A stretch of 64,000 nucleotides of DNA, taken from NCBI RefSeq assembly GCF_044324875.1, contig NZ_CP172185.1. The stretch is one strand, 5' to 3'. The DNA comes from Escherichia coli (GTDB taxonomy: Bacteria > Pseudomonadota > Gammaproteobacteria > Enterobacterales > Enterobacteriaceae). Position 1 is the stretch's first letter; each line of letters opens with the position of its first letter. Below, in pieces: positions 52,301 through 58,300 of this stretch. Made by a program: the position numbers.

Positions 52301-55300
52301 CAATAAGGGGTGGCTGCAGGATATCAGGGACCAGGCCCCGCAACGCGTCATGAAAGACGTGATGCTGACTGCGCGCAATATGGACAATTCGGTGGCATAC
52401 ACCGGCAGATACGCCAATCCCGATGCACTGATCCAGGATGCACGCTCATCCCTGCTTGACGAATGGCACAAGGACGCAGACGACCTCGTTGTCATCATGG
52501 GGCGAAACCTCTTTAACTCCCTGCGCCTGCCGGTCCTGAACAGTATCAGCATGCAGAATGCGAATGCCGAACTGCTTGCCGGACAGCTCATTGTGTCAAC
52601 GCGGACCATTGGCGGCCTTGATGTGTACCTTGCGCCATTTTTCCCGGCTCAGTCAATGCTCATCACCTCATTCAGCAACCTGTCGGTTTACTGGCAGAAG
52701 GGGTCCATGCGTCGTCTCATGAAGGATGAGCCCGAATACAACCGTATCGCCATCTATCAGTCCGTTAACGACTGCTATGTGGTTGAGGACCATGGTAAGT
52801 GCGCACTGATTGAGAATATCAGCTTTGCCGAATATGACCATGACGCGCCGGACTGGTACCGGGACGCCACAAAAGCACTGTCAGCGCAGGCTGAAGACAG
52901 GGATGCAGGGGAAGAGGAGGATTAACCATGCTGACACCGGCACAGGCTCATTTCCAGCGCGTGATGGCTTTACGGGCAGGAACGGCAGCAGAAAACGAGG
53001 ATATCGTGGCCCGCACGGCTCATGAGCAGGTCCTTCACCGTCTGCGCCTGGCACAGCAACGCATAAAGGGCGTCCAGGCAAAAGCGGCAAAGGCCGCGCT
53101 CAAGCGTGAAATGCTGCCGGGTTTTGCAGGCTGGATAGACGGCACGCTGGAAGCCGACGGCGGACAGCAGGATGAGGTGATAGCCACACTCATGGTGTGG
53201 GCCGTGGACTGTGGCGACCTGGCGCTTGCACTGCGCATCGGGGATTATGTGGTTCGCCACAACCTCACGATGCCTGACAACTTCGGGCGTACGGCAGCCA
53301 CGGTACTGACCGAGGAAATCTGCAACCCTGTTCTGACACAGGCCGGAACGGATGCACACGCCGATTTGTCCGGCTACATCGAACCGCTGGACACCCTCTG
53401 GCAAATTGTCGCGAACCGGGACATGCCCGATGAGGTCCGCGCCAAGCTGTGCAAGGCATGCGCCTTTGCCCGTCGTGGCCTGACCGATGCCGACAGCATG
53501 GCGGTGAGTCTGAAGCTGTTCCGTGAGGCAATGCACCTTAACCCGAATGCGGGGGTAAAACGTGAGATTGCCACGCTTTCACGGGCCCTGAAAAAGGCCG
53601 GACAGGATGAAGCCGCTGCCGCACAGGAGCCTGCGGCACAGAAAGATACAACCAGAGAACAGACCACGACGCCGAAGGCGAAAGCGAAAGCGAAGGCGAA
53701 ACGTGGTTAACGGCTGACCCCGTCAGAAGGCGGCGTGCCGGGCGTTCCGGTTACGGTTTTCCGTTCCCCTTACACCCGGCACCCACCGCTTTTTTTTCTG
53801 AAGGAGCGATTTATGAGCATGGTCGCAAGACCGGAAGCCGCCCCTGCGCGGGACGACATCACCGACACCGACGACGGCGACGCCACCATCACCGCCGGGG
53901 CATTCTGGCCGGAGATTGTGCTGCGGGAGCTGCGCCTTGCAGTACGCCTGCCGGGCCGCATCACCTCCACACGTCTGGCGCACGTTGCCACGGGAGCCGT
54001 GGCTCACGTCACGCGGGAGCTGGAAGAGTGGCAGCAGGCGCAAATCGCCGCAGGATTCAGCACGCTGACAGACGTACCTGCCGCCACCATCAACGGTGAG
54101 AGCGTCAACGCCTGGCATTACCGGCACGCCGTCTACAGCGCCACCCGTGCCCTGATTCTGGAGCGCTGGCGGGATGTGGACACCACCGACAAGGGGGACC
54201 GCAGGGCTGACGCACTGGATGAGCAGGTGGAGGACCTGTGGCGCGACGTGCGCTGGGCGATTTCCGATATTCTCGGCTTTCCCCGTCTTTTTGTGGAGCT
54301 TGTGTGATGAAAGTGAGGGCACTTCAGGGGGACACCGTCGATTTACTCTGTTTCCGGCACTACGGCACCACGCAGGGGGTGACCGCACAGGTACTTGATG
54401 CCAATCCAGGGCTCTGCCGCCAGGTAATTCTGGAAGCGGGACAGGAGGTGGAGATGCCGGAGCCGGAAAGGAAACAGCAACGCGAAAAGGTAAAGCTATG
54501 GTGACGGGATTTTTTCAGCGCGTCAGTGACTGGATCACCTTCTGGGCGTCAGTGACGGCAACAACCATTGGTGTTATGACCATCAGCGAAAAAATTGCGC
54601 TGGCCGGGCTGCTTCTGGGGTCACTTTCCGCCATCCATGCCTGGTGCCACCGCAGGCGTACGGAGCAGGCAATGAAGCGCCGCAATGACCTTATCGCCCG
54701 CATCCTGGCACGTTCAGAAAACCGCGAGCTTCACGACGGTGAGAGACGGGCACTGGACAGCGTGAGACAGGACGGAGAAGAGCGGTGAAACTGCCGGTAA
54801 AACGTTATGCGGTGGCGGCCATTGTGGCGCTGGGCGTCTCCATGGCACCCGGTGAACTGAGAACCTCACGGGAAGCACAGATAAAAATCGCCACCCGGGA
54901 AGAGTGCCGGGCGACACCGTACCGGGATATTGCAGGAGTAATGACCGTGGGATGTGGTTCAACAGGGGGCGTGGAGAACCGGGTTTACGGAGAAAAGGAG
55001 GTGGCCCGCCGCTGGGTGAATGACCTGCGGCACGCGGAAAACTGTATCAACCAGAACTTCAGCGGTGCCGCCATGCCCCAGTCCGCCTTTGAGGCGATGA
55101 CCGACGCGGCGTTCAACGTCGGCTGTACCGGCCTGATGTGGTACCGGGACAGGAGCGGCAACCGGCAGCGCACCACCATCTGGAAGCACGCACAGGCGCA
55201 CCGCTGGGTGGCGATGTGCGGGAGACTGACCGATTTTGTCAACAGTGGCGGACGCCGCTCACAGGGGCTGGTTAACCGCCGGGAGGAGTTCAGACAGTGG

Positions 55301-58300
55301 TGTCTTCGCGACACGGGAGGCAGCACATGAGACCGGTTTACGCCGTGATTGTTGCCCTCATGGTGACCACCCTGACGGCGGCGGCCATGTGGCAGTCATA
55401 CCGGCTGGGGCGTGCCGGTGAGGCACGTGACGCCGCAGAGCAGCAGCTGGGCGAATACAGCCGGGCGCTGCGTGAGTCCTCCGCCGTTATCAGCGATGCC
55501 TCCGCCGTACTGCATGAGGTGATGACGCAGCGACAGAAAAGGGCACAGGAAGGAGAAGTCAGACGTGAACAGCTTCGCGAAATTGCTGCGACGGATGAGT
55601 GCGCCGGCACTCTTCCTGACCACCGTTTTACTGACCGGCTGCGCGAACACACGGAACGCGCCACTGCCCGCGCCCTCCTTCCGGTTCATTCCGGCGGGAC
55701 TGACGACGGGAACACGGCCCCCGCCCTTCCCTGAACACCCCACATGGGGAAATATCGGGATATGGAGCGACAGCCTCCTGGATGCACTGGAAACCTGCAA
55801 CGCAGACAAACAGGCCATTGAGGCGCTGGAGCGCCGGAGACTCAACCGACAGAACGGAGGGGGACATGCTGAAAAGTAAATCCCTGAGCACACACATGAG
55901 TACAGCGTGCCGGTGGTGCAGGGCCAACCCGGAAAAGTTCACCGTGTTCATTGAACGTGGCGGGATAGAGACCACCGGCGAGACGCCGACGTTCGTGTAC
56001 AACTACCGGCTCGTGATGTTCGTCATGGACTACACGGGCGACCTGGACGACCTGACGCTTCCACTGATTGTCTGGCTGGCAGAGAACCAGCCGCAGTTGC
56101 TGCTTAATCCTGAGCGCAACGGCGATATTCAGTTCACGGCGGCCATTAACGACGACGACAGTGCGGACGTGCTTTTTGAGCTGCCGCTGCGCGAGCGCGT
56201 GCGCGTCACCCGCAGGGATGACGGCACCCTCACAACGGAACATCTGCCGGAGCCGAAATCGCGCATCCCGCAGGACGGCGACTGGTCGCACATTCTGGAG
56301 GATGTGACGTGGGAGGTGACCGGTGACTGACAGGGCTTTCACTGAACTGGACCGCACAATGCGGACCATCAGCAGCGGACTTTCCCCGCAGGCACTGAGC
56401 CGCATTGCCGGACAGCTTGCCAGAGAGGTTCGCCGCAGCCAGCAACAGCGTATGCGCGCACAGAAAGCGCCGGACGGTACACAGTGGGAGCCGCGCAGAC
56501 GGCGCATCAGCCGCCTGCAGCAGCGTATCCGCTTCATCCGGAACAACGAAACCCGCACGCTGAAAAACTGGCATCACGACGTGAGCAGACACGGACGCAC
56601 CATCACCGGCTGGGATGAGGATAAGGGAGGCCTGCGCACCTTCTACCGGGAGGATATCACCCGTTATCTTGAAATCAGCACCCGCCGCATCAGCCGCAAC
56701 GCCACAAAGACCGTACCGATGTTTGCGAAGCTGCGCACGGCACGCTACCTGAAAGCCAGAGGCGATGCGGGCGGTCTGACCGTCGGTTATGACGGCGTGG
56801 CGGCACGCATTGCCCGCGTTCACCAGTTCGGGGAGCGCGACCGGGTGGCCGCAGGGGTGTATACGGATTATCCGGCCCGTGAACTTCTTGGAATAACACC
56901 GGCAGATGAACGGCTGATTGCCGACAGGCTACTGAACCGCATTGCGGGAGAAATATCATCATGAACGCGGAGCTTATGCGCCTTATCAGCAACATTATCA
57001 GAACCGGCGTGATTTTCGACGTGAACCCGCAGACCTGGGAGGTCCGGGTGCGCAGTGGCGGACTGGAGACAGGGTGGCTTCGCTGGAGCACCGCGCGGGC
57101 GGGCGCGTTCAGTGTCTGGGTGCCGCCAGCCACCGGTGAACAGGTGGCGTTCGTCTGTATCGGTGGTAATCCCGAAACCGCGATAATCATCGGCAGCCTC
57201 TGGAGCGATGATATCCCGGCACCGGGCAGCACACTGAAGGAAATCATCATGACAGCACCGGACGGTGCGGTATTCCGCTACGATGCAGACGCCGGTGCAC
57301 TGGAGGTTAAGGGGATTAAAACAGCCAGCATTCAGGCCGACACGCGCATCACCCTGGACACGCCGGAGGTGGTGTGTACCCGCAAACTTATCACCGCCAC
57401 CCTGGAGGTGCAGAACGGCGGCGAGATGCGCGGCAGCATATCCCACAGCGGCGGCAGCCTGACATCCAACGGTATCACCGTTCATACGCACACCCACGGT
57501 GGCGTCAGGACGGGCCCGGGCACCACGGGAGGCCCGCAATGACCGCTGTTTACAGGGGGATGAACCCGCAGGGAACCGGCACGCTGAGCGACAGCGAACA
57601 CCTGAAAAACAGCGTGCGGGATATCCTGACCACACCGCCAGGCAGCCGGGTGATGCGCCGCGAATACGGCAGCCTGTTACCGGACCTCATCGACGAGCCC
57701 ATGAACGACACCACGCGTTTACAGTGCATGAGCGCCACGGTGACTGCGCTGGCGCGCCATGAACCCCGTATAGCACTGCAGAACGTCGATGTGAACTGGC
57801 GGGCTGGCGGACGCGCCGTGGTGACGTTATCCGGCATCATCACCGAAACCATGCAGAACATCACATTCAGTATCACCCTGAGGGAGTAAATCATGCCTTC
57901 CGTTGACCTGTCACAGTTACCGGAACCGGCCATCATCGCGCAGCCGGATTTTGAGTCCATCCTGGCAGACATTAAAACCATGATGGTGAGCTCCTTCCCG
58001 GAAGAATACCGCGCCGCCGTCACCCGTGCCCTTACTCTGGAATCCGAGCCATTGAACATCATTTCCCAGGCCATGGCCTTTCGTGAAATGCTGCTTCGCC
58101 AGCGCATCAATGAAGCCGCCCGCGCCTGCATGCTCAGCCACAGCCGGGGCAGTGACCTGGACAATCTGGCCGCCAACAACAACACCCGCCGCCTGGTCAT
58201 TCATCCGGCCACTGATACCACGGAAGCAGTGATGGAAAGCGACACATCGCTGCGTCTGCGTGCCCAGTCAGCCTGGGACGGCCTGAGTGTGGCCGGACCG

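What the first reader, a model, noticed from the sequence alone, without database searches (positions are those of the whole stretch)
54498..55879. Lysis cassette of the pinholin, SAR-endolysin and overlapping-spanin type
The endolysin has an N-terminal Gly/Ala-rich signal-anchor and a T4-lysozyme-like E-x8-D-x5-T catalytic triad, implying sec-dependent export and pinholin-triggered release rather than canonical holin-mediated release. The o-spanin gene overlaps the i-spanin 3' end in another frame and extends into gene R.
Basis: partly seen in the sequence, partly recalled or inferred. Interest (0 to 1): 0.3.

Follow-up and report, generated by a model that had tools for sequence, protein, structure and literature searches.

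The report
Prophage lysis cassette, HP1/P1 type
This is the four-gene cell-bursting module of a P2-like prophage of E. coli: a small membrane "timer" protein, a self-exported cell-wall enzyme, and a two-part outer-membrane disruptor. It is an ordinary example of a known type, though public annotation truncates or misnames three of the four genes.

Summary
Window 54498-55879 holds four translationally coupled genes between tail genes X and R of a P2-like prophage:
- a 96-aa two-helix holin;
- a 181-aa GH24 lysozyme with an N-terminal basic plus 16-residue uncharged segment and an E39-x8-D48-x5-T54 triad;
- a 135-aa i-spanin;
- a +1-frame lipoprotein o-spanin that ends 14 nt inside R.

- The endolysin is a P1 Lyz relative (E 7e-36). 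Its model matches active Lyz at TM 0.89. Similarity to phage 21 R is only distant.
- It has lost the P1 thiol switch: Asp replaces the catalytic Cys and there is no Cys in the anchor.
- The holin shows no Pfam match to S21. It is a remote homologue (profile-profile probability 95%) of the phage HP1 holin, which was characterised experimentally as a pinholin paired with a SAR endolysin.
- Pinholin function here is therefore inferred, not shown. SAR endolysins also work with large-hole holins.
- The spanin layout is the same as P2 lysB/lysC.

Verdict: a new member of a known kind, of low interest. The useful by-products are annotation corrections and a derived Asp/Cys57 clade within the P1 Lyz family.

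The parts
54498..54788 (+). Class II holin, 96 aa. Two predicted helices (about 12-29 and 33-50) joined by an invariant S-E-K turn. TMD2 carries G37xxxG41xxxA45. The C-terminal tail is basic. Probable pinholin of the HP1 holin superfamily.
   Evidence: - PHROG 1350 holin, 7.4e-23.
- Pfam HP1 holin PF16080 at only 19.8 bits, below the cut-off of 28.8; distant family members reach 40.8 bits.
- Profile-profile comparison against the HP1 holin family: probability 95%, P 3.6e-8.
- Hydropathy.
- AlphaFold helices 3-26, 29-75 and 80-95.
54785..55330 (+). SAR-type endolysin, 181 aa, a GH24/T4-lysozyme-like muramidase of the P1 Lyz family. GTG start.
   Evidence: - PF00959, 1.4e-21.
- P1 Lyz 1xjt, E 6.9e-36.
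- The AlphaFold model (pLDDT 91.4) matches active Lyz at TM 0.89/0.91 and rmsd 1.9 A over 178 columns.
54806..54853 (+). Codons 8-23 (YAVAAIVALGVSMAPG): the uncharged, weakly hydrophobic signal-arrest-release segment. It is preceded by K2, K6 and R7.
   Evidence: - Composition and hydrophobicity are in the range of the P1, R21 and HP1 SAR domains.
- The segment is conserved in 44 homologues. Pro22 is present in 43/44.
- The model predicts a high-confidence helix (residues 10-20) packed on the enzyme body.
54899..54946 (+). Catalytic triad codons: E39 (54899-54901), D48 (54926-54928) and T54 (54944-54946). Invariant Cys41 and clade-specific Cys57 lie nearby.
   Evidence: Alignment to P1 Lyz E42/C51/T57. 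Motif census of 44 homologues.
55327..55734 (+). i-spanin, 135 aa. N-terminal TMD at residues 3-22, a helical periplasmic domain, and a single periplasmic Cys92 in the conserved motif EGE-RRE...C-A.
   Evidence: - PHROG 214 Rz-like spanin, 1.3e-25.
- About 30% identity to the DUF2570 i-spanins at the same position in related prophages.
55565..55879 (+). o-spanin, 104-aa precursor.
- Signal peptide with K6, R9 and R10; lipobox L-T-G-C26; Ala at +2.
- Mature form is 79 aa with 9 Pro; one further Cys (C78).
- +1 frame; overlapped architecture; the last 14 nt lie inside gene R.
   Evidence: - Pfam LysC PF23793, 2.1e-13, 50.4 bits against a cut-off of 27.
- PHROG 3001/456.
- A conserved but unannotated ORF sits at the same place in phiT5282H: tblastn E 1.5e-17. 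The same holds in L005/L007.
54307..54504 (+). Flank: tail protein X (upstream neighbour). Its stop overlaps the holin start.
   Evidence: PF05489, 1.7e-20. 48% identical to P2 X.
55866..56330 (+). Flank: tail completion protein R (downstream neighbour). Its first 14 nt are shared with the o-spanin.
   Evidence: PF06891, 4.4e-38. 35% identical to P2 R.

Best explanation
This is the lysis module of a P2-like (Peduoviridae) prophage, transcribed as part of the late O-N-M-L-X...R-S operon.

Proposed mechanism; all steps are inferred from homology.
1. The endolysin is exported by Sec. It stays tethered to the inner membrane, inactive, through its short, weakly hydrophobic N-terminal segment.
2. 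The 96-aa two-helix holin accumulates in the inner membrane. At a set time it triggers and collapses the membrane potential, most likely through small HP1/S21-type pinholes.
3. Depolarisation releases the anchor. It refolds as a helix onto the enzyme body and gives the active E39/D48/T54 muramidase. No thiol-disulfide isomerisation is involved, because this clade has Asp instead of the catalytic Cys and has no Cys in the anchor.
4. Once the murein is degraded, the i-spanin/o-spanin complex (inner-membrane anchor plus outer-membrane lipoprotein) disrupts the outer membrane.

What is shown here: gene structure, family memberships, the triad, the anchor composition, the lipobox, the overlaps, and conservation.
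For: Context
- L-X-[cassette]-R-S-V in a P2-like prophage.
- No + strand promoter or terminator inside the cassette.

Endolysin
- P1 Lyz is the best solved relative, E 6.9e-36, and the alignment runs into the SAR segment.
- The model matches the active form 1xjt (TM 0.89, rmsd 1.9 A), including the N-terminal helix. It matches the inactive form 1xju poorly (TM 0.60).
- The anchor has 3 basic residues followed by 16 uncharged residues, 50% G/A/S/T. This is the same length as the HP1 Lys anchor, and it is less hydrophobic than the i-spanin TMD (PMC7312051).

Retention of the anchor
- In 28 Cys-type homologues, a Cys at anchor position 8 always accompanies the catalytic Cys48. In 16 Asp-type homologues both are absent.
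- Pro22 follows the best small-x-small site in 43/44 sequences.
- Position 23 is charged or polar in half of the sequences.

Start codon
- The GTG start has a GGAG and is coupled to the holin stop.
- Met20, the RefSeq start, is present in only 5/44 homologues.

Holin
- PHROG holin; two helices and a basic tail.
- Remote homology to the HP1 Hol family: probability 95%, P 3.6e-8.
- Weaker similarity to S21: probability 75%.
- Experimentally, HP1 Hol kills without lysis and without beta-galactosidase leakage, and it is needed for phage release (PMC7312051).

Spanins. Same overlapped layout as P2 lysB/lysC (PMC6139136).
Against: - No experiment exists for any member of this holin family. Only 17 representatives were found among 1.84 billion proteins.
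- The window holin itself is below the Pfam threshold for the HP1 holin family (19.8 against 28.8) and shows no PF04971 match.
- Its TMD1 is less polar than the SAR-like TMD1 of S21 or HP1: Hessa sum +2.2 against +7.0 and +4.7.
- SAR endolysins are also served by large-hole holins (PMC9025707, PMC12642591).
- The HP1 pinholin evidence is itself indirect, and it reports an unusual topology.
- The anchor is short, and a G17-x-S19 site fits the -3/-1 rule, so signal-peptidase cleavage cannot be excluded without an experiment or SignalP. The T4 RI 'SAR domain' turned out to be cleaved (PMC8385771, title and abstract).
Confidence: 0.68

Rival explanations
1. Same cassette, but the 96-aa protein is a canonical large-hole holin. 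It merely depolarises the membrane to release the SAR endolysin, as P1 LydA does for Lyz.
For: - SAR endolysins function with either holin type (PMC9025707; PMC12642591).
- Holin type cannot be read from sequence: 'necessitating experimental validation'.
- The window holin's TMD1 is only moderately polar.
- The protein is longer (96 aa) than S21 (68/71 aa) or HP1 Hol (78 aa).
Against: - Remote homology to the HP1 holin family and weaker similarity to S21. Both of these were characterised as pinholins.
- No similarity to the canonical holins P1 LydA/LydC or P2 Y.
- It has the two-TMD class II architecture with a GxxxGxxxA face.
- It sits immediately upstream of, and is coupled to, a SAR endolysin, which is the usual pinholin arrangement (PMC9025707, PMC9239132).
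Confidence: 0.22
2. The N-terminal segment of the endolysin is an ordinary cleaved Sec signal peptide. The enzyme is secreted as a soluble periplasmic protein and is kept in check by the energised membrane or some other means (the fOg44 Lys44 style), not by membrane tethering.
For: - The uncharged run is only 16 residues.
- Small residues occupy positions 17 and 19 (G-x-S/T/A) in most homologues.
- SignalP-type tools call a signal peptide on the comparable HP1 Lys N-terminus (PMC7312051).
- There is a precedent of a presumed SAR domain that is in fact cleaved: T4 RI (PMC8385771).
Against: - The anchor Cys8 and the catalytic Cys48 co-occur perfectly in the sister clade. This requires the segment to remain on the mature enzyme, as in P1 Lyz.
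- The anchors of the two clades are near-identical in length and sequence.
- Pro22 is conserved.
- The model packs helix 10-20 onto the enzyme at pLDDT about 97, as in active Lyz.
- The alignment to P1 Lyz extends into its experimentally uncleaved SAR domain.
Confidence: 0.07
3. The RefSeq gene model is right. Translation starts at ATG 54842 (Met20) and gives a 162-aa cytoplasmic endolysin, which would need a large-hole holin.
For: NCBI annotation of near-identical prophages uses this start (WP_202116435.1). ATG is a more common start codon than GTG.
Against: - No Shine-Dalgarno sequence lies before 54842, whereas GGAG lies 7 nt before GTG 54785.
- The 19 upstream codons are conserved as protein in all 44 full-length homologues. 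Met20 is present in only 5.
- Gene callers on related contigs use the long form.
- The short form would delete a helix that is part of the folded model.
Confidence: 0.02
4. The 96-aa protein is not a holin. It is either a tail protein (the RefSeq name) or a Mu gp25-like 'releasin'.
For: RefSeq names it 'phage tail protein'. Mu shows that a SAR endolysin can be controlled without a holin (PMC9239132).
Against: - It has two hydrophobic helices, a basic tail and a PHROG holin match.
- The RefSeq name probably comes from X+holin fusion ORFs such as P0062.
- The releasin belongs to DUF2730, has one N-out/C-in TMD and an acidic cytoplasmic domain. There is no DUF2730 hit here.
Confidence: 0.01

Closest known systems
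Haemophilus phage HP1 (P2-like, Hpunavirus) hol-lys-orf25 cassette (Adamczyk-Poplawska et al. 2020, PMC7312051)
   Same: - It is a P2-like phage, with the gene order small two-TMD holin, overlapping SAR endolysin, then Rz-like gene.
- HP1 Lys is a P1-Lyz-family lysozyme, 40% identical to the window enzyme, with a 16-residue uncharged N-terminal stretch.
- The holin families are remotely homologous (probability 95%).
- Neither holin has a dual-start antiholin.
   Different: - Holin identity is only about 24-29%, and the window protein is below the Pfam threshold.
- The window holin is 96 aa, against 78 aa for HP1 Hol.
- HP1 Lys is the Cys type (Cys in the anchor, catalytic Cys); the window enzyme is the Asp type.
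- HP1's cassette sits after the tail tube gene, not between X and R.
- No o-spanin has been described in HP1.
Phage P1 endolysin Lyz (PDB 1XJT active, 1XJU inactive)
   Same: - It is the best solved relative (E 6.9e-36, about 42% identity, TM 0.89).
- It has the same fold, including the N-terminal helix.
- Cys41 corresponds to Lyz Cys44.
- Four further Cys residues are conserved.
   Different: - Lyz uses Cys51 as its catalytic residue. That Cys is caged by Cys44 and freed by Cys13 of the SAR domain (own knowledge: Xu et al. 2005).
- The window enzyme has Asp48, no Cys in the anchor, a new Cys57, and an anchor about 5-8 residues shorter.
- The P1 holins LydA, LydC and LydD are unrelated to the window holin.
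Phage 21 S21 pinholin / R21 SAR endolysin
   Same: - It is the functional paradigm.
- R21 has the same E-x8-D-x5-T triad with Asp, and no Cys in its SAR domain.
- S21 is a two-TMD holin with a glycine-zipper TMD2 and a basic tail.
   Different: - R21 is only distantly similar (E 1.2e-4, 24% identity, TM 0.66).
- The window holin has no PF04971 hit; hhalign probability is 75%.
- There is no dual-start motif.
- Phage 21 has embedded Rz/Rz1 (own knowledge), whereas here the spanins are overlapped.
Phage P2 Y-K-lysA-lysB-lysC
   Same: - The cassette sits in the same slot between X and R in the late operon.
- The architecture is the same: lysC starts inside lysB in another frame and ends inside R, by 38 nt in P2 and 14 nt here.
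- The o-spanin passes the Pfam LysC threshold.
   Different: - P2 Y, K and LysB show no BLAST similarity to the window proteins, and there is no lysA equivalent.
- P2 K has no N-terminal hydrophobic segment (sequence). P2 Y/K is regarded as a canonical holin-endolysin pair (own knowledge).
- The window i-spanin scores 17.8 against the LysB equivalog cut-off of 92.75.
Enterobacter phage phiT5282H (Novemvirus) and Klebsiella phages ST16-OXA48phi5.4 / Kp48xx
   Same: - They are the closest sequenced phages.
- Gene order is the same: X, holin, endolysin, i-spanin, overlapped o-spanin, R.
- Holin identity is about 51%; endolysin identity is 66-69%.
   Different: - phiT5282H's endolysin is the Cys type (P1-like switch).
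- In phiT5282H the o-spanin ends before R.
- None of these cassettes has been tested experimentally.

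Membership tests
SAR (signal-arrest-release) endolysin | N-terminus has 2-3 basic residues followed by an uncharged, weakly hydrophobic, Gly/Ala/Ser/Thr-rich TMD | tested here: met
   K2, K6 and R7, then 16 uncharged residues with 50% G/A/S/T. Hessa sum per residue is 0.23, against 0.17 for P1 Lyz, 0.18 for R21 and 0.11 for the i-spanin TMD.
SAR (signal-arrest-release) endolysin | Muralytic catalytic domain directly after the anchor (lysozyme E-8-D/C-5-T) | tested here: met
   E39/D48/T54 align with P1 Lyz E42/C51/T57. PF00959 at 1.4e-21.
SAR (signal-arrest-release) endolysin | Anchor is not cleaved by signal peptidase and is retained in the mature enzyme | tested here: inconclusive
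   - Indirect support: perfect Cys8/Cys48 co-occurrence in the sister clade, Pro22 in 43/44 sequences, and the helix packed in the model.
- Against: a G17-x-S19 site fits the -3/-1 rule.
- No SignalP run or experiment was available.
SAR (signal-arrest-release) endolysin | Sec-dependent export, holin-independent leaky lysis, and release by a pinholin or by depolarisation | not testable with these tools
   Requires expression experiments. These properties have been shown for the homologues P1 Lyz (own knowledge) and HP1 Lys (PMC7312051).
P1 Lyz-type thiol-disulfide switch subclass | Catalytic Cys at the D position, caged by the Cys two residues after the catalytic Glu | tested here: not met
   The position is Asp48. 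Cys41 (equivalent to Lyz Cys44) is present.
P1 Lyz-type thiol-disulfide switch subclass | Free Cys in the SAR domain that drives isomerisation | tested here: not met
   There is no Cys in residues 1-40; position 8 is Tyr. All 28 Cys-type homologues have Cys there.
Lyz103-type disulfide caging (Erwinia phage ERA103; own knowledge, Kuty et al. 2010) | Two Cys flanking the catalytic Glu, plus a Cys in the SAR domain | tested here: not met
   Only Cys41 lies near E39. There is no Cys upstream of it and none in the anchor.
Pinholin (phage 21 S21 family, Pfam PF04971) | Sequence membership | tested here: not met
   - The window protein has no PF04971 hit.
- Distant relatives score 19-20.6 bits against a cut-off of 26.
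- hhalign against S21 gives probability 75%.
Pinholin (functional class) | Small protein with two TMDs, N-in/C-in, and a basic cytoplasmic tail, encoded next to a SAR endolysin | tested here: met
   - Hydrophobic runs at 12-30 and 33-50.
- Tail has 13 K/R against 10 D/E, with HRRR directly after TMD2.
- Model helices at 3-26 and 29-75.
- The gene overlaps the endolysin start.
Pinholin (functional class) | TMD1 is SAR-like and can leave the membrane; TMD2 forms nanometre-scale pores; cannot release a soluble endolysin | not testable with these tools
   TMD1 is 50% G/A/S/T but less polar than S21 or HP1 TMD1. TMD2 has GxxxGxxxA. Pore size needs a complementation or leakage assay.
HP1 holin family (Pfam PF16080, TC 1.E.7) | Score at or above the Pfam gathering threshold | tested here: not met
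   - The window protein scores 19.8 bits against 28.8.
- Family members P0071 and P0076 reach 40.8 bits.
- The profile-profile comparison gives probability 95% over both TMDs.
- Conclusion: a remote relative, not a Pfam member.
Two-component spanin, overlapped architecture (P2 LysB/LysC type) | o-spanin is an outer-membrane lipoprotein: signal peptide, lipobox Cys, no Asp at +2 | tested here: met
   Lipobox L-T-G-C26, then Ala. The n-region has K6, R9 and R10. The match to PF23793 LysC is 50.4 bits against a cut-off of 27.
Two-component spanin, overlapped architecture (P2 LysB/LysC type) | o-spanin gene starts inside the i-spanin gene in another frame and ends beyond it | tested here: met
   It starts at 55565, inside 55327-55734, in the +1 frame, and ends at 55879. 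The P2 layout was checked. The definition comes from PMC6139136.
Two-component spanin, overlapped architecture (P2 LysB/LysC type) | i-spanin has an N-terminal TMD and a periplasmic helical domain; membership of the LysB equivalog | tested here: inconclusive
   The TMD at residues 3-22 and the PHROG 214 match (1.3e-25) are met. TIGR03495 LysB scores 17.8 against 92.75, and there is no BLAST match to P2 LysB. It is a functional analogue from a different i-spanin family; relatives hit DUF2570.

The most novel reading that the evidence does not exclude
The Asp-type clade to which this enzyme belongs is a derived branch of the P1 Lyz family. It discarded the SAR-Cys/catalytic-Cys isomerisation switch and, in the same step, gained Cys57, while the old caging partner Cys41 stayed invariant.

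The most novel reading not excluded is that Cys41 and Cys57 form a new disulfide. It could be a cage without an internal releasing thiol, or a staple replacing the SAR-Cys-Cys41 link. Either would be a third covalent way of controlling or stabilising a SAR endolysin.
Probability: 0.12. Interest if true: 0.45.

Novelty: new member of a known kind. Interest (0 to 1): 0.2.

Why it matters
The practical value is in annotation.
- In RefSeq copies of this prophage, the endolysin is started at Met20, which removes the export and tether signal.
- The o-spanin is started at a CTG inside its signal peptide, or is not called at all.
- The holin is named 'phage tail protein' or 'hypothetical'.
- Anyone mining these prophages for lysins, or predicting lysis phenotypes, would misclassify the system as a cytoplasmic endolysin with no holin.

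Biologically, three points follow.
- The HP1-type pinholin/SAR-endolysin module extends from Pasteurellaceae phages into P2-like prophages of Enterobacteriaceae.
- The slot between X and R is an exchangeable lysis cassette.
- The family offers a natural pair of closely related SAR endolysins, one with and one without the thiol switch, for studying how activation is controlled.

None of this changes current understanding of phage lysis.

Tried and rejected
- Megablast of the 2-kb region against the phage collection found nothing. The cassette is known only from prophages and, at the protein level, from a few Klebsiella and Enterobacter phages.
- The holin was tested against the P1 holins LydD (pinholin), LydA and LydC. 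hhalign probability was below 1%, so there is no link to the holins that serve the nearest endolysin relative.
- With the narrow 10-sequence holin profile, S21 similarity was nil (probability 1.5%). It appeared only with the widened profile (75%), so it is treated as weak.
- NCBIfam gave no holin or LysC call, and only a far-sub-threshold LysB match.
- BLAST against the P2 proteins Y, K, LysA and LysB gave no similarity. The cassette is not a diverged P2 cassette.
- Mu-type releasin was considered and rejected on topology, charge and the absence of a DUF2730 match.
- A dual-start antiholin was considered. The ATG-GTG at 54498-54503 is not matched by a conserved second start or an added basic residue in homologues. 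Rejected.
- The C41-C57 distance could not be measured, because model coordinates are not exposed and no structure files are present.
- Kuty et al. 2010 (PMC2953681) is not held. Statements about Lyz103 rest on my own knowledge.
- The o-spanin pairwise table was corrupted by a false lipobox candidate and is not used. The valid comparison is the tblastn.

Full report
**Observation**

The interval 54498-55879 contains four + strand ORFs that are packed end to end.

- **Holin-like ORF.** It runs from ATG 54498 to TGA 54788 (96 aa). Its start overlaps the stop of tail gene X.
- **Lysozyme ORF.** It runs from GTG 54785 to TGA 55330 (181 aa). The start overlaps the holin stop (GTGA), and a GGAG lies 7 nt upstream.
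- **i-spanin.** It runs from ATG 55327 to 55734 (135 aa). It has an ATGA overlap with the lysozyme stop and a GGGAGG upstream.
- **o-spanin.** It lies in the +1 frame, from GTG 55565 (a GGAG lies 9 nt upstream; the alternative ATG 55595 would leave a signal peptide with no basic residue) to TAA 55879.
  - It shares 170 nt with the i-spanin and extends 145 nt past it.
  - It ends 14 nt inside tail gene R (ATG 55866).

**The ORFs are real genes in a P2-like prophage**

- Pfam identifies the neighbours as head completion protein L, tail protein X, tail completion R and S.
- The wider window is E. coli chromosome: glsA at 35133-36065, then a phage integrase at 36345-37358, followed by a P2-like prophage.
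- A copy of the cassette with at least 95% identity is present in 25 of 5,426 complete E. coli genomes.
- The lysozyme matches PF00959 (1.4e-21). The o-spanin matches PF23793 LysC above threshold (50.4 against 27 bits).
- PHROGs calls holin (7e-23), endolysin (9e-48) and Rz-like spanins (1e-25, 5e-19).
- The order X, holin, endolysin, i-spanin, overlapped o-spanin, R recurs in other E. coli prophages, in Dickeya zeae, in Klebsiella and in Enterobacter phage phiT5282H.
  - Protein identities range from about 30% (i-spanin) to 63-77% (endolysin).
- In phiT5282H the overlapped o-spanin ORF is conserved (tblastn E 1.5e-17) although it is not annotated.
- No + strand promoter- or terminator-like site lies inside the cassette. 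This fits expression from the long late operon, as in P2.

**The endolysin**

- The best solved relative is the phage P1 endolysin Lyz (1xjt, E 6.9e-36). Phage 21 R and its DLP12 homologue are far weaker (about 1e-4).
- The alignment puts E39, D48 and T54 on Lyz E42, C51 and T57, so the triad claim stands.
- An AlphaFold model built on 24 homologues has mean pLDDT 91.4, and its N-terminal helix 10-20 has a block-mean pLDDT of about 97.
  - It superposes on the active form of Lyz at TM 0.89/0.91 and rmsd 1.9 A over 178 columns.
  - It superposes on the secreted inactive form only at TM 0.60.
- The N-terminus is MKLPVKR followed by 16 uncharged residues (YAVAAIVALGVSMAPG; 7 Gly/Ala, 50% G/A/S/T).
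  - On an approximate Hessa scale it is at least as weakly hydrophobic per residue as the P1 and R21 SAR domains, and weaker than the i-spanin TMD.
  - It has the same length as the 16-residue stretch of HP1 Lys (PMC7312051).

**Is the anchor translated, and is it retained?**

RefSeq starts the gene at Met20 (162 aa), which removes the anchor. Three results argue against that model.
- There is no Shine-Dalgarno sequence before that ATG.
- Met20 is present in only 5 of 44 homologues.
- The 19 upstream codons are conserved as protein in all 44.

On retention, the informative result is a census of the 44 full-length homologues.
- 28 have a Cys at anchor position 8 together with a catalytic Cys at position 48. 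This is the P1 arrangement, in which the SAR-domain thiol must attack the caging disulfide (own knowledge: Xu et al. 2005).
- 16, including the window, have Tyr8 and Asp48. There are no mixed cases.
- That pairing makes sense only if the anchor stays on the mature protein in the Cys clade. The Asp-clade anchors are nearly identical in length and sequence.
- Pro22 follows the best small-x-small site in 43/44 sequences. Pro at +1 blocks signal peptidase I (established knowledge).
- Position 23 is charged or polar in half the sequences.

A G17-x-S19 site still fits the -3/-1 rule, and I could not run SignalP. Cleavage is therefore unlikely but not excluded; the T4 RI precedent (PMC8385771) is a reason for caution.

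**Regulation differs from P1**

- The window enzyme has Asp at the catalytic position and no Cys in the anchor, so it cannot use the P1 isomerisation switch.
- It also lacks the Cys pair flanking the catalytic Glu that defines the ERA103 type.
- By elimination it should be controlled as R21 is, by tethering and refolding alone. This is an inference.
- A neighbour-joining tree places the Asp clade as one branch nested among Cys-type sequences, with P1 Lyz as outgroup. The loss is therefore a single derived event.
- It coincides with a gain of Cys57 (I/M/L in all Cys-type sequences), while Cys41, the former caging partner, stays invariant. I could not measure whether these two residues are within disulfide distance.

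**The holin**

- The 96-aa protein has two hydrophobic runs (12-30 and 33-50), an invariant S-E-K turn, a G37xxxG41xxxA45 face on the second run, and a tail that begins HRRR.
- AlphaFold gives helices 3-26 and 29-75 at modest confidence.
- The family is very small: 13 clusters at 90% identity, and 17 representatives among 1.84 billion proteins. It has no curated name; RefSeq calls it 'phage tail protein' or 'hypothetical'.
- It is unrelated to the P1 holins LydA, LydC and LydD and to P2 Y.
- The window protein scores 19.8 bits on the Pfam HP1 holin model (cut-off 28.8), but distant family members score 40.8.
- A profile of 15 family members aligns with a profile of 13 HP1-holin relatives at 95% probability (P 3.6e-8). 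The alignment covers both helices and the proximal tail, with one 2-residue gap.
- Similarity to S21 is weaker: 75% probability with the widened profile.
- HP1 is itself a P2-like phage. Its Hol was shown to kill E. coli without lysis or beta-galactosidase leakage and to be required for phage release. [quoted passage not shown]
- The same holin family is found upstream of both Asp-type and Cys-type endolysins.

**How far the pinholin claim goes**

The literature is explicit on two points.
- Holin type must be shown experimentally (PMC12642591).
- SAR endolysins work with either type: P1 Lyz works with the canonical holins LydA/LydC and the pinholin LydD, R21 works with lambda S, and N4 gp61 works with both (PMC9025707).

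[quoted passage not shown] Against it, TMD1 here is less polar than in S21 or HP1 Hol, and the HP1 evidence is itself indirect. I put pinholin at roughly two in three and a large-hole holin at roughly one in five.

**The spanins**

- The i-spanin has a TMD at residues 3-22 and one periplasmic Cys (C92), which lies in a motif conserved across related loci (EGE-RRE ... C-A).
- The o-spanin has a basic n-region and the lipobox L-T-G-C26, followed by Ala. Absence of Asp at +2 implies outer-membrane sorting (established Lol rule).
  - Its mature form is 79 aa, with 9 Pro in the first half and one further Cys (C78).
  - Its conserved C-terminal half (TWG-I-IWSD-L-DAL--CNADK-AI) lies downstream of the i-spanin stop. 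The overlapped part is variable.
- The layout is the 'overlapped' class of Kongari et al. (PMC6139136).
- It is exactly that of P2, where lysC starts inside lysB and ends 38 nt inside R.
- Among the related loci examined here, only the window's o-spanin reaches into R.

**Comparison and verdict**

- Relative to P2, the flanks X and R are homologous (48% and 35% identity).
- Y, K, LysA and LysB have no counterpart by BLAST. The slot between X and R therefore carries a different lysis module, of the HP1/P1 kind.
- Each component belongs to a described class, and the nearest experimentally studied system (HP1) has the same logic.
- The finding is correct and well read, but ordinary: a new member of a known kind.
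- What is new is modest: corrected gene starts and names, the extension of the HP1-type holin superfamily into Enterobacteriaceae prophages, and the Asp/Cys57 clade of the P1 Lyz family.

Noticed in passing
window 54785-55330 (codons 8, 41, 48, 57) and homologues P0001-P0047: Three positions co-vary perfectly across 44 full-length endolysin homologues. Tyr8/Asp48/Cys57 occurs in 16 sequences and Cys8/Cys48/(I, M or L)57 in 28, with Cys41 invariant. The Asp clade is a single derived branch inside the Cys-type P1 Lyz family. The role of the newly gained Cys57 is unexplained.
   Followed up: partly
window 54842 (Met20 of the endolysin), 55616 (CTG), 54498-54788; RefSeq copies in L001, L003, L010: RefSeq/PGAP annotation of near-identical prophages has three problems. 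It starts the lysozyme at Met20, which loses the export anchor. It starts lysC at a CTG inside the signal peptide, or omits it. It names the holin 'phage tail protein' or 'hypothetical protein'.
   Followed up: yes
L002 (Enterobacter phage phiT5282H, NC_049429) 3275-3589: A conserved overlapped o-spanin ORF (lipobox SVTAC) is not annotated in the phage record. A 30-aa 'hypothetical protein' is annotated nearby instead.
   Followed up: partly
database proteins P0048, P0062, P0066, P0072: Several public ORFs fuse X+holin or holin+endolysin. These are presumably frameshifts or pseudogenes. The X+holin fusions may explain why the holin inherited the name 'phage tail protein'.
   Followed up: no
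window 59871-60638: The tail-fibre gene has three imperfect direct repeats of 168/300-nt units (78-100% identical). The alignment to strain F374 breaks and shifts register here, which suggests repeat-number variation.
   Followed up: partly
window 35133-39311 versus L003: The prophage lies next to glsA/ybaT, with its integrase at 36345-37358. A copy that is 99% identical from window 39311 onward lies next to btuC in strain F374, with a different integrase arm. So the same phage body occurs with a swapped integration module.
   Followed up: partly
window 46086-46785 (- strand): A RelE-family toxin gene and an adjacent helix-turn-helix gene (a toxin-antitoxin-like pair) are carried inside the prophage, between the replication genes and the portal gene.
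   Followed up: no
window about 20000-33500: Upstream chromosomal genes include the giant adhesin gene siiEA and a TolC-family outer-membrane protein gene, according to the annotation of matching genomes. They are unrelated to the finding.
   Followed up: no
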